From NCBI GenBank assembly GCA_024275415.1, contig JAJRZD010000092.1:1-20812 (forward strand): a stretch of 20,812 nt of DNA. The letters are read 5' to 3'. This stretch comes from an archaeon (lineage in GTDB: Archaea > Asgardarchaeota > Thorarchaeia > Thorarchaeales > Thorarchaeaceae). The notes beneath the pieces are model-generated. The model did no database searches. It was not told the origin of the DNA and worked only from the letters and a program-made list of their open reading frames with translations. Shown in pieces: positions 1 through 1,829 of this stretch; the first letter of the stretch is position 1, and the number at the start of each line of letters is the position of its first letter. The translations under genes were made by a program, and so were the position numbers.

Positions 1-39
1 ACCACTCTTGGAATACTATCTCATCAGCAGTAGAGCAGG

Positions 40-67
40 AAACAAAAACCCCAGTCATGCTGGGGTT
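40..67 (-). terminator. Hairpin + U-tract terminator downstream of tbp
   Basis: Perfect 8-bp stem AACCCCAG (47-54) / CTGGGGTT (60-67) with a 5-nt loop. On the minus strand it is followed by TTTGTTT and starts 10 nt after the tbp stop codon. Confidence 0.65.
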
Positions 68-77
68 CAGTAGGAAT

Positions 78-662
78 CTACTCGCTGCTCCAATCTTCGC
101 CTTCTGGAACTCGCATCACACCAAGTTCTAGCAACCGATCCATGACTTTCTCAGCCGCTTCATCAATCTGCGGCTCGAACTTGGCACCAGTGATCACAAG
201 CTTCCCTGAGCCAAATAACAATATGACCACCTTGGGGTCTCGCATCCTATAGATGAGTCCAGGGAACTGCTCGGGCTCGTAGAGTGTGTTCTCAAGCTTC
301 ATAGCTGCAAGCTCTAGGTTCAGCTCCGCACCGAGACTGGCACTTGCAACAATGTTCTGGACCACGATGATTGGTTTTCCAGTGATCTCGATTCCAGCCT
401 CTCGGATATTCTTGACGATACGATGGACAGCCCTTTTGGCTTCCTTCTCGCTTTTTGCGCCCGTACATACCATTTTCCCTGAGTTGAATATCAGAGTAGC
501 AGTCTTGGGTTTCTTTAGCCTATACACGAGACCTGGGAATTGCTCCGGGTCGAATTCCACATTCGGCATGGTTGCAGCAATCTCATCAAGATCCAGTCGC
601 TGGTTCAAGATGACCGAGGCAACAACATTCTCAATCTTTGTCTTTGGTTGAGGTCTAGGCAT
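78..662 (-). CDS. tbp: TATA-box-binding protein (archaeal TBP)
   Basis: 194 aa with two direct repeats of the TBP fold: ENVVAS..EFDPEQFPGLVYR..LIFNSGKMVCTGAKS and QNIVAS..YEPEQFPGLIYR..LLFGSGKLVITGAK. Short acidic C-tail. SD-like AGAGGAG upstream on the minus strand. Confidence 0.98.
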   Translation of the reverse strand: MPRPQPKTKIENVVASVILNQRLDLDEIAATMPNVEFDPEQFPGLVYRLKKPKTATLIFNSGKMVCTGAKSEKEAKRAVHRIVKNIREAGIEITGKPIIVVQNIVASASLGAELNLELAAMKLENTLYEPEQFPGLIYRMRDPKVVILLFGSGKLVITGAKFEPQIDEAAEKVMDRLLELGVMRVPEGEDWSSE

Positions 663-678
663 TTGTGATGAATCTCCT

Positions 679-730
679 CTTTATAAGGAACATTCCTTAT
701 AAAGGGGGTTTATAAGGGGCCTTTATAAAG
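679..730. promoter_or_regulatory. Cluster of four TATA-like TTATAA elements upstream of tbp
   Basis: TTATAA at 681-686, 697-702, 710-715 and 723-728. The first two lie in a perfect 12-bp inverted repeat (679-690 / 693-704). The fourth lies in the perfect palindrome CTTTATAAAG (721-730). Confidence 0.7.
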
Positions 731-858
731 ATGTGCAATAGGTCAATGGCCCCATTTCTCCTAGTTGGCTGCGTATATTATATTTTGATATTCTAGAGAG
801 AACCAATAATCAAAAAAGAGGGGAATCCTGTAAATACCGAGTACTGGAGCGAAGTCCA

Positions 859-1692
859 ATGGAATATGAGGAGAGCGACTATATCGGATATGATGGGACA
901 CAGATGTTCCTTCGTATCTGGAAACCAGAATCAGAGCCAAAAGCGGTCATTCTTGGAATACACGGCATTGGGTCTCACAGCGGGCTGATATCGTATGTTG
1001 GCGAGTTCTTCGCCAAAAATGGATTCCTTTTCTATGCCCCTGATATGAGAGGGTTTGGACACTTTCAAGGTGCAAAAGGACATGTTGACAGTTTTGATGA
1101 ATATGTCCAAGATATTGACTCGTTAGTTTCGTTTCTCAAACTGCGACATCCGGAAATCAAGATTTTCTTATTAGGCCATTCCCTTGGAGGGCTGTGGGTT
1201 CTCAATTATTCTCTCTCACACCCGAATGAAGTTGATGGCCTTATCACACCTTGCCCAGCCGTTTCAGAGAGGTTGAAAATTAACCCGCTAGTTCGCGCCT
1301 TGGTCAAGGGGCTATCCAGACTGAACATCAAGACATATTTTGATACCGGACTTGACTTTGACCTGATTTCAAGAAACCCCGATGTGGTCAGAATGAACAA
1401 GGAAGACCCTCTTCGATTCGACAAGGCATCCCCACGGTTTGCAGCAGAGGGTTTCAAAACAACAGATGATGTCTTCAACAGGGCTGAGGAGATAACTACG
1501 CCAATCCTCATCCAGCAAAGCGGCGACGACCAGATCCTCATCCCAGAAATGAACAAGCAATTCTTTGACCGTATCTCCTCAGAGGACAAGACTTGGAAGC
1601 TCTACGAGGGCCTTTACCATGAGCCGTTCCAAGAAGAGGGCGGTGAGGAGTTTCTCTCGGACATGATTGCATGGGTGAACGAGCGGGTATGA
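859..1692 (+). CDS. Alpha/beta hydrolase, monoacylglycerol lipase / lysophospholipase family
   Basis: 277 aa. Oxyanion HGIGSH, D-x-R-G-F-G motif, nucleophile elbow GHSLGG, catalytic Asp region (GDDQIL) and His (LYHE). Confidence 0.9.
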   Translation: MEYEESDYIGYDGTQMFLRIWKPESEPKAVILGIHGIGSHSGLISYVGEFFAKNGFLFYAPDMRGFGHFQGAKGHVDSFDEYVQDIDSLVSFLKLRHPEIKIFLLGHSLGGLWVLNYSLSHPNEVDGLITPCPAVSERLKINPLVRALVKGLSRLNIKTYFDTGLDFDLISRNPDVVRMNKEDPLRFDKASPRFAAEGFKTTDDVFNRAEEITTPILIQQSGDDQILIPEMNKQFFDRISSEDKTWKLYEGLYHEPFQEEGGEEFLSDMIAWVNERV

Positions 1693-1829
1693 GTTTGTTT
1701 CTATGATGGGAAAGCCTGCTGATACAAGTCTAAGGCTATGAAAACCCTTTTATGCTTCATGCAGGCTTCGAGCCCGAAGTAGTGAGATGACACGGTAGAA
1801 TCCGTCTGCGATAAAGAGAGTGACATTAG

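What the first reader, a model, noticed from the sequence alone, without database searches (positions are those of the whole stretch)
663..735. Four TATA-like boxes stacked in front of the TBP gene: possible TBP autoregulation
Seen: TTATAA occurs four times in 48 bp (starts 681, 697, 710, 723; spacings 16, 13, 13). Read as TTTATAA, box 1 is on plus, box 2 on minus, box 3 on plus and box 4 on both strands. Boxes 1 and 2 form a perfect 12-bp inverted repeat with a 2-nt loop. Established: archaeal TATA boxes sit about 25-30 nt upstream of the TSS and are bound by TBP. Inference: a transcript driven by box 4 would start near 700, on top of box 2. Excess TBP loading on boxes 1-3 could then occlude its own promoter, giving a concentration-sensing negative feedback loop. 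Alternatives are tandem or divergent promoters, a cruciform, or an operator array for another factor.
Basis: partly seen in the sequence, partly recalled or inferred. Interest (0 to 1): 0.7.

Follow-up and report, generated by a model that had tools for sequence, protein, structure and literature searches.

The report
TATA-box array guarding the TBP gene
The gene for the TATA-binding protein of this Thorarchaeota (Asgard) archaeon is preceded by four copies of the protein's own consensus binding site. The arrangement is unique in the genome and conserved across the family, which points to an undescribed feedback loop in which a general transcription factor controls its own gene.

Summary
Observation confirmed. 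TTATAA starts at 681, 697, 710 and 723, upstream of the single TBP gene (78-662, minus strand) of a Thorarchaeota MAG. The hexamer occurs only 285 times in 3.53 Mb. This is the only cluster of three or more in the genome, and tbp ranks first of 2,528 gene upstreams for TATA-like boxes.

The array is conserved. Of 55 distinct thorarchaeal tbp upstream regions, 52 carry at least 3 boxes (mean 3.6 per 120 nt, against 0.11 in flanking DNA and 0.36 per 100 nt before neighbouring genes). This holds whatever gene lies upstream, so the array belongs to tbp.

The layout recurs: a distal box with a conserved flank at the BRE position, an optional second box 12-14 nt downstream, and one or two proximal boxes. 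The proximal boxes fall on the predicted start site or early transcribed DNA and abut the Shine-Dalgarno sequence.

My best reading (about 45%) is negative autoregulation, in which excess TBP occupies the proximal boxes and blocks polymerase. The main rival (about 30%) is stacked promoters that secure tbp expression.

Not conserved: the perfect 12-bp inverted repeat. No start-site or binding data exist. Simpler double boxes precede tbp in other Asgard lineages and in Thermoproteota, and one TFB gene shows a similar motif. First-stage readers of this scan noted similar arrays on other genomes. I found no paper describing this.

The parts
78..662 (-). tbp gene (194 aa TATA-binding protein). It is the only TBP gene in the genome.
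   Evidence: Pfam TBP E 3.4e-63, two repeats. Single locus in G000. Best solved relative is archaeal TBP 1mp9, E 6.6e-64. The sequence keeps both EQFPGL and both (I/L)F.SGK motifs, which carry the four DNA-intercalating Phe.
46..68 (-). Terminator-like hairpin followed by a T-run, just after the tbp stop codon. This suggests tbp is monocistronic.
   Evidence: consensus scan only.
674..677 (-). Shine-Dalgarno-like GGAG, 11 nt before the ATG and directly abutting box 1.
   Evidence: Read. A GGAG/GAGG-type purine block is kept at this place in the relatives.
679..686 (-). Box 1 (TTATAAAG on the tbp strand). Its first T is 24 nt before the ATG. That is too close to drive a Shine-Dalgarno-led or even a leaderless mRNA at canonical TATA-TSS spacing. 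It is a candidate auto-repression site.
   Evidence: Equivalent proximal boxes lie at -20 to -37 in 55 relatives.
695..703 (-). Box 2 (TTTATAAGG on the tbp strand). It lies on the start site predicted for box 4.
709..716 (-). Box 3 (CTTATAAA on the tbp strand; TTTATAAG on +). This is the second box of the distal pair, 14 nt from box 4. The matching box is lost in several relatives.
721..730 (-). Box 4, the palindrome CTTTATAAAG. It is the distal box, the most conserved of the array, and the likely core-promoter TATA box.
   Evidence: The distal box TTTAWAAGG is present in 53 of 55 relatives.
731..740 (-). Conserved flank (T)ATTGCACAT immediately upstream of box 4, at the position of a BRE. It may be a BRE or a site for a further factor.
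   Evidence: Consensus ..TT.CWCA.. with C/A at -4/-3 in 44 and 50 of 53 sequences; alignments.
676..707 (.). Inverted repeat formed by boxes 1 and 2 (perfect 12 bp, 2-nt loop). It is not conserved in relatives.
   Evidence: comparison.
774..786 (+). Separate AT-rich TATA-like tract (TATATTATATTTT). It is the likely promoter of the divergent hydrolase gene and is not part of the array.
   Evidence: Read; position 73-85 nt before ATG 859. Inference only.
859..1692 (+). Divergent neighbour, an alpha/beta hydrolase (Hydrolase_4). It is not a conserved partner of the array.
   Evidence: Pfam E 5.5e-67. A close homologue lies divergently upstream of tbp in only about 9 of 68 thorarchaeal loci.

Best explanation
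The four boxes are a conserved array of consensus TATA boxes, specific to tbp, and so are binding sites for the product of the gene they precede. They place tbp transcription under control of the cellular TBP level.

Most likely mechanism:
1. The distal box 4 (721-730), with its conserved flank at the BRE position, is the core promoter. It is perhaps helped by box 3.
2. With the usual archaeal spacing, the first T of the TATA box lies about 27-33 nt before the start. Box 4 would then start RNA at about 696-702, and box 3 at about 682-688.
3. Those positions fall exactly on boxes 2 and 1.
4. When TBP is scarce, only the promoter box is filled, because TFB stabilises TBP there, and tbp is transcribed.
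5. When TBP is abundant, boxes 2 and 1 are also filled. TBP bends and occupies the DNA that RNA polymerase must load on and melt, so initiation falls. This is negative feedback.

Shown: the array exists, it is unique in the genome, it is conserved independently of the neighbouring gene, and the geometry holds.

Inferred: that TBP binds all the boxes, where the RNA starts, and the sign of the feedback.
For: Uniqueness:
- This is the only cluster of three or more TTATAA in 3.53 Mb.
- tbp ranks 1 of 2,528 gene upstreams for TATA-core boxes.
- Four of the five TFB genes of the same genome have no comparable box cluster.

The boxes are the genome's TATA core:
- TTATAA is the top hexamer at -70..-25 of genes, enriched 5.7-fold.

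Conservation:
- 52 of 55 distinct thorarchaeal tbp upstreams have at least 3 boxes. The mean is 3.6 per 120 nt, against 0.11 in 166 kb of flanks and 0.36 per 100 nt before other genes of the same loci.
- Arrays are seen in 14 genera of the family.
- Boxes, the distal flank and the Shine-Dalgarno sequence are kept while the spacers vary.

The array belongs to tbp:
- The upstream neighbour varies in identity and strand.
- In 8 of the 10 family genomes with any hit, the paired-box pattern TTTAWAARN{3,8}TTATAWA matches only upstream of tbp in the whole genome (compared with the tbp places).

Geometry:
- In every group at least one consensus box lies between the distal promoter box and the ATG, at -20..-37 and abutting the Shine-Dalgarno sequence.
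- In this genome, and in the group with the box at -20..-27, it cannot be a productive promoter.

Not simply a strong-promoter design:
- The box spacings seen here are not a general feature of the genome.

Background:
- Archaeal TATA, BRE and Inr elements and TFB-set polarity are reviewed in PMC7289017. The TATA box lies about 28 nt before the TSS (PMC8553660).
- Archaeal autoregulators such as Lrs14 and LrpA act by occluding their own promoters (named in PMC4158304; the mechanistic details are from my own knowledge).
Against: - There is no TSS map, RNA-seq, footprint or ChIP for any Thorarchaeota, so start sites are extrapolated.
- Archaeal TBP-DNA complexes measured so far are short-lived. 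Lifetimes are 0.18 s for M. jannaschii and 2.1 s for S. acidocaldarius (which also needs TFB), against 12 min for yeast (PMC4041446). A TBP-only roadblock may therefore be weak.
- The distance from the distal pair to the proximal boxes varies (19-30 nt from the second box). The proximal box is therefore sometimes at -10..-2 rather than after +1.
- An AT-rich element at -10 could instead help DNA melting.
- I could not define a BRE consensus for this genome, so box orientation and relative TFB affinity are unknown.
- The second box is dispensable in several relatives.
Confidence: 0.45

Rival explanations
1. Stacked promoters acting as a 'first-served' safeguard. TBP is needed to transcribe its own gene. 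Several consensus boxes would make tbp the best competitor for scarce TBP and give several entry points for initiation complexes. A downstream box would double as an AT-rich melting or initiator element. The loop would be positive or neutral, not repressive.
For: - The same uniqueness and conservation data fit this reading.
- Most promoters of this genome have weak or no consensus boxes; 85% of upstreams have none. Consensus boxes at tbp would therefore win TBP first.
- A published model of auto-catalytic TBP expression is bistable, and survival depends on TBP-DNA affinity (PMC2928763).
- In many genera the next box lies 21-22 nt after the second box, which is the -10 region of a promoter using that box.
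- The TFB orthologue shows TATA plus a second box at +22, ending where conserved transcribed-looking sequence starts.
Against: - The most proximal box lies at -20..-27 in this genome and in many genera. At canonical spacing it would start RNA inside the ORF or after the Shine-Dalgarno sequence, so it cannot add productive starts.
- A melting element needs only A/T richness, yet exact TATA consensus (TATATAAR, TTATAAAG) is kept.
- Other presumably highly expressed genes of the genome have no such arrays.
Confidence: 0.3
2. The boxes are operators of another sequence-specific regulator, a dimer that recognises TTTATAAGG / CCTTATAAA half-sites, and not TBP decoys.
For: - The boxes pair as inverted repeats. 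Examples are 676-690/693-707, 709-718/720-729 and CCTTATATAnTATATAAGG in another clade.
- GG/CC flanks are conserved.
- A further conserved element, TTGCWCA, sits next to the distal box.
Against: - The half-sites are the genome's TATA core itself, and TATA boxes are inherently near-palindromic.
- Arm spacing and relative orientation are not conserved between genera.
- No regulator gene is a conserved neighbour.
- The pattern is essentially unique to tbp, so such a factor would have a regulon of one.
Confidence: 0.1
3. Bidirectional promoter. The oppositely oriented boxes drive the divergent hydrolase gene or an upstream antisense RNA.
For: - In this window a gene does diverge from tbp (859-1692).
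- Back-to-back TATA boxes at a true divergent pair (PadR/ArsR-like regulator and a methyltransferase) were seen in relatives.
- G-rich stretches precede boxes 3 and 4 on the + strand.
Against: - In most thorarchaeal loci the upstream gene is co-directional and unrelated, yet the array persists.
- The hydrolase gene has its own TATA-like tract at 774-786.
- A divergent promoter would need two boxes, not four.
Confidence: 0.07
4. RNA-level element. The proximal boxes are transcribed and act in the 5' UTR, either as an AU-rich translation enhancer or as a hairpin next to the Shine-Dalgarno sequence.
For: - The proximal box always abuts the Shine-Dalgarno sequence.
- In this genome boxes 2 and 1 could form a 12-bp hairpin.
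Against: - The hairpin is not conserved.
- In other clades the palindrome leaves a 1-nt loop, so it cannot fold as RNA.
- The element has the same sequence as the non-transcribed distal boxes.
- There is no Rfam match.
Confidence: 0.05

Closest known systems
Archaeal autoregulated repressors that occlude their own core promoter (Lrs14 of Sulfolobus, LrpA of Pyrococcus; named in PMC4158304)
   Same: Binding sites for the gene's own product lie on or just downstream of its TATA box and start site. The expected action is steric exclusion of the initiation machinery.
   Different: Here the presumed repressor is the general factor TBP itself, and the 'operators' are ordinary TATA boxes. No gene-specific regulator is involved, and nothing has been shown experimentally.
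Auto-catalytic TBP expression in eukaryotes (kinetic model, PMC2928763)
   Same: TBP is required for transcription of its own gene, so the affinity of TBP for its own promoter determines the stable TBP level.
   Different: That loop is positive and rests on a single promoter plus TBP dimerisation. No array of extra TATA boxes is described.
Concentration-sensing operator arrays, e.g. phage lambda CI at OR1-OR3 (my own knowledge); ZNF143 autoregulation through low-affinity sites and a start-site switch (PMC3936768, abstract only)
   Same: Several graded sites for one protein sit in its own control region, so low levels activate and high levels repress or shift the start site.
   Different: The proteins and domain of life are unrelated. 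Here the sites are core-promoter elements.
Ordinary archaeal BRE/TATA core promoter (PMC7289017)
   Same: Each box fits the 7-8-bp T/A consensus, and the distal box has a conserved element at the BRE position.
   Different: There are four boxes instead of one. Three lack a recognisable BRE, and at least one is placed where it cannot direct a useful transcript.

Membership tests
TATA-binding protein (gene product of 78-662) | Two TBP repeats (Pfam PF00352) over the curated cut-off | tested here: met
   209.9 bits against a cut-off of 22.9, two stretches. Best PDB relative is archaeal TBP 1mp9, E 6.6e-64.
TATA-binding protein (gene product of 78-662) | Two pairs of DNA-intercalating phenylalanines | tested here: met
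   EQFPGL and (I/L)F.SGK motifs are present in both repeats and align to 1mp9. Assigning the Phe to these motifs is my own knowledge.
Archaeal TATA box | 7-8-bp T/A-rich consensus that is enriched upstream of genes in the same genome | tested here: met
   All four boxes read YTTATAAR. TTATAA is the most enriched hexamer at -70..-25 of 1,728 gene starts.
Archaeal TATA box | Located about 26-30 nt upstream of a transcription start | not testable with these tools
   No RNA run was listed and no TSS data exist for the group. By position, boxes 4 and 3 could serve an SD-led mRNA, box 2 only a truncated leader, and box 1 none.
Archaeal TATA box | A-rich BRE juxtaposed upstream that sets polarity | tested here: inconclusive
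   Flanks of 62 other TTATAA boxes give no clear consensus. Box 4 has a conserved but not A-rich flank. The TFB promoter does show CGAAAG.
Archaeal TATA box | Bound by TBP | not testable with these tools
   Needs EMSA or footprinting.
Autoregulatory operator array | Sites are specific to the regulator's own gene and conserved with it | tested here: met
Autoregulatory operator array | Sites overlap the promoter or start site so that occupancy changes initiation | tested here: inconclusive
   The geometry fits if canonical spacing is assumed, but no TSS is known.
Autoregulatory operator array | Expression responds to the level of the gene product | not testable with these tools
   Needs TBP titration in vitro or in a reporter.
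Bidirectional (divergent) promoter | A divergently transcribed partner gene is conserved with the element | tested here: not met
   The upstream neighbour is mostly co-directional and unrelated. A close hydrolase homologue lies divergently upstream in only about 9 of 68 loci.

The most novel reading that the evidence does not exclude
Archaea may run a general-factor homeostat. Under this reading, tbp genes, and in Thorarchaeota also one tfb gene, carry extra consensus TATA boxes over their own start sites. TBP would then sense its own concentration and set the level of the basal machinery.

The trait would be old. Double or multiple boxes precede tbp in other Asgard lineages (at least 2 boxes in 18 of 22 loci). 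They also precede tbp in Thermoproteota (at least 2 boxes in 20 of 29 loci), against 5-10% of neighbouring genes.
Probability: 0.3. Interest if true: 0.8.

Novelty: new variant of a known kind. Interest (0 to 1): 0.62.

Why it matters
How cells set the level of their general transcription factors is poorly understood, and for archaea I found nothing on TBP dosage control at the promoter level. An array of TATA boxes on the tbp gene itself gives a simple hypothesis that can be tested directly with recombinant TBP, TFB and a 90-bp DNA fragment. It occurs in Asgard archaea, the closest known relatives of eukaryotes, and in simpler form in other archaeal phyla. It could therefore reflect an ancient way of keeping the basal machinery in balance. 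It also offers natural templates for asking how TBP chooses among, and competes at, neighbouring TATA boxes.

Tried and rejected
- RNA evidence: no RNA holder was listed for window 1-1700, so no start-site mapping was possible.
- Rfam: no match in the tbp or tfb regions.
- Sigma-70-type promoter scan: irrelevant for an archaeon, and it gave only chance-level hits.
- BRE-based orientation of the boxes: the flanks of other TTATAA boxes in the genome gave no usable consensus.
- 'TATA plus a second box 22 nt downstream is the general strong-promoter design of this genome': rejected. Only 11 such pairs exist genome-wide and there is no peak in the spacing histogram.
- 'All general-factor genes have arrays': rejected. 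Four of the five TFB genes have no comparable cluster.
- Divergent-promoter reading: rejected by the variable neighbours.
- Cruciform or dimer operator based on the perfect 12-bp repeat: the repeat is not conserved.
- First control with neighbouring genes: contaminated by windows that overlapped the tbp array. It was redone with exclusion. The two remaining multi-box cases were an AT-rich tract and a true divergent regulator/methyltransferase promoter.
- Literature: six full-text searches found no paper on TATA-box arrays or promoter-level autoregulation of archaeal tbp.
- Not attempted: fetching tbp loci of model archaea with published TSS maps.

Full report
WHAT IS THERE. The window is a whole contig of a 3.53-Mb Thorarchaeota (Asgard) MAG. 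Relatives carry that name in their record titles. The ORF 78-662 on the minus strand is a canonical two-repeat TATA-binding protein (Pfam TBP, E 3.4e-63). Its closest solved relative is archaeal TBP 1mp9, and it is the only TBP gene in the genome. A terminator-like hairpin follows its stop codon.

Upstream lies a 196-nt spacer (663-858) shared with a divergent alpha/beta-hydrolase gene (859-1692). In this spacer TTATAA starts at 681, 697, 710 and 723. Read on the tbp strand, from distal to proximal, the region is:
- ATTGCACATC, the conserved flank;
- TTTATAAAGG, box 4;
- CCCC;
- TTATAAA, box 3;
- CCCCC;
- TTTATAAGG, box 2;
- AATGTTCC;
- TTATAAAG, box 1;
- AGGAG, the Shine-Dalgarno sequence;
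- ATTCATCACAA, then the ATG.

MORE THAN CHANCE. TTATAA occurs only 285 times in the genome. That is about a quarter of what base composition predicts (my arithmetic). This is the only place where three or more copies lie within 30 nt of each other. With seven TATA-core hexamers, the genome holds 2,094 boxes. Only two places hold four boxes in 64 nt, and the other is a plain AT-rich tract. Of 2,528 crude gene calls, 85% have no such box in their 120 upstream nt, 13% have one, and only tbp has four. TTATAA is also the most enriched hexamer at -70..-25 of genes (5.7-fold). The four boxes are therefore copies of this organism's best TATA core.

CONSERVATION. TBP is 94-98% identical across the GTDB family. 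I collected 55 distinct upstream regions of thorarchaeal tbp genes with TBP at least 90% identical. Of these, 52 have at least three TATA-core boxes in 120 nt. The mean is 3.6, against 0.11 per 120 nt in 166 kb of flanking DNA and 0.36 per 100 nt in front of other genes in the same loci. The two multi-box controls are an AT-rich tract and a genuine divergent promoter. Arrays are visible in 14 genera.

The gene upstream of tbp varies. It is usually a co-directional, unrelated ORF. A close homologue of the hydrolase lies divergently upstream in only about nine loci. The array therefore belongs to tbp.

The paired-box pattern TTTAWAARN{3,8}TTATAWA was searched through whole genomes of relatives. 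Of the ten family genomes with any hit, eight have their only hit directly upstream of tbp (compared).

Alignments show classic footprints. The boxes, a flank upstream of the distal box (..TT.CWCA.., with C/A at -4/-3 in 44 and 50 of 53 sequences) and the Shine-Dalgarno block are kept, while the spacers drift. The second box is lost in several genomes. The 12-bp perfect repeat is private to this genome.

ARCHITECTURE AND GEOMETRY. Three layouts recur:
- This genus: boxes at -67, -53, -41 and -24 from the ATG.
- A large clade: -78, -65, then the palindrome CCTTATATAnTATATAAGG at -43/-35.
- Another set of genera: -56, -43, -22.

Archaeal TATA boxes lie about 28 nt before the start (PMC8553660). 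Polarity is set by TFB on the BRE (PMC7289017). tRNA promoters of this genome fit that spacing.

Taking 27-33 nt from the first T, box 4 predicts a start at 696-702, inside box 2. Box 3 predicts 682-688, inside box 1. Box 2 would cut the Shine-Dalgarno sequence. Box 1 would start inside the ORF. The TBP N-terminus aligns from residue 1 and offers no later start codon.

The same holds in the other layouts. With the constant distal box as promoter, at least one consensus box falls at about -4 to +22. This is the DNA that RNA polymerase must occupy and melt.

INTERPRETATION. The array is tied to tbp and to almost nothing else in the genome, so a role that involves TBP acting on its own gene is the economical reading. 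I favour negative feedback by occlusion (0.45). The proximal boxes cannot be productive promoters here. They also keep an exact TATA consensus rather than mere A/T richness. Archaeal repressors typically act at exactly this position (Lrs14 and LrpA, named in PMC4158304; details from my own knowledge).

The main rival (0.30) is that the boxes are stacked promoters and a melting element. On that reading they make tbp the first gene served when TBP is scarce. A published model shows that auto-catalytic TBP expression is bistable and sensitive to TBP-DNA affinity (PMC2928763). In many genera a box sits 21-22 nt after the second box, in the -10 region.

A caveat for the roadblock idea is that measured archaeal TBP-DNA complexes last only 0.18-2.1 s (PMC4041446). 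Nothing is known for Asgard TBP.

The lesser rivals are weakened as follows:
- Another regulator: no conserved neighbouring regulator gene, and the box arrangement varies between genera.
- A bidirectional promoter: the neighbours vary.
- An RNA element: the structure is not conserved and there is no Rfam hit.
These rest.

WIDER PATTERN. Four of the five TFB genes of the genome have no comparable box cluster. One TFB gene (contig C38, start 54265) does carry a related motif, conserved in all but one of the family genomes examined. It reads CGAAAG-n-TTTATAAG, then 13-14 nt, then TATATAAR, followed at once by conserved TGTAGCGGAAC and a leader of about 125-160 nt. Two genomes have a palindromic double box there. 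Such spacing is not a general promoter design of the genome.

Outside Thorarchaeota, 18 of 22 tbp loci from other Asgard lineages have at least two boxes in 120 nt, often 10-13 nt apart. So do 20 of 29 tbp loci from a Thermoproteota sample. Only 5-10% of neighbouring genes reach two boxes.

First-stage readers of this scan noted tandem TATA boxes before tbp in at least six other genomes. Those notes are unchecked, and I used them only as leads.

KNOWN OR NEW. Six full-text searches found no description of TATA-box arrays at archaeal tbp genes, nor of promoter-level TBP autoregulation in archaea. Autoregulation through sites in one's own promoter is a well-known principle. A general factor doing so through extra copies of the core-promoter element is a new variant of it.

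VERDICT. The element is real, conserved and specific to tbp. The cruciform and divergent-promoter alternatives are weakened. Interest is 0.62.

Noticed in passing
L115:648-834 (= G000 contig C38:54078-54264; not in the window): One of the five TFB genes has a conserved double-box promoter: CGAAAG-n-TTTATAAG, then TATATAAR about 22 nt downstream. Conserved TGTAGCGGAAC follows at once, and then a leader of about 125-160 nt. In this genome there is also a TATATATA box 22 nt before the ATG, abutting the Shine-Dalgarno sequence GGGGTGAT. The motif is kept in all but one of the family genomes examined. The leader has no Rfam match.
   Followed up: partly
whole genome G000: TATA-core hexamers are strongly depleted genome-wide. 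TTATAA occurs 285 times, against about 1,200 expected from base composition (my arithmetic). 85% of gene upstreams have no consensus-like box, so most promoters here must use weak or different TATA elements.
   Followed up: partly
whole genome G000 (contigs C111, C20, C38 x2, C69): There are five full-length TFB paralogues, two of them adjacent on C38, but only one TBP gene.
   Followed up: no
window 731-740 (minus strand): A conserved element TTGCWCA sits at the BRE position of the distal box (CA at -4/-3 in 44-50 of 53 relatives). It is not A-rich like known BREs, so it could be a lineage-specific BRE or a site for a further factor.
   Followed up: partly
window 670-682 and 815-827: The leader regions of the two divergent genes form an inverted repeat (13 nt, 85% complementary). 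On its own coding strand each reads AAAGAGGRGAWTC. In the hydrolase gene this lies 32 nt before the called ATG at 859, so the true start or leader of that gene may differ.
   Followed up: no
window 46-68 (minus strand): A 9-bp GC-rich hairpin followed by a T-run lies 10 nt after the tbp stop codon. This is a bacterial-style terminator shape in an archaeon.
   Followed up: no
L043:274-373, L057:807-906, L082, L099 (relatives): A PadR/ArsR-like regulator gene and a methyltransferase gene diverge from back-to-back TATA boxes (CCTATATATACATTTAAATG). These are flanked by the repeated palindrome GGACATCCAATATTGGACACC, probably the regulator's operator.
   Followed up: no
L089-L094, L023, L024 (relatives): A TBP form only about 81% identical, found in some Thorarchaeota, has just two boxes (CCCTTATAAAGCGCCTCTTTATAAAGGG), about 55-70 nt before its start and with no proximal box. 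Further TBP paralogues in these genomes lack arrays.
   Followed up: no
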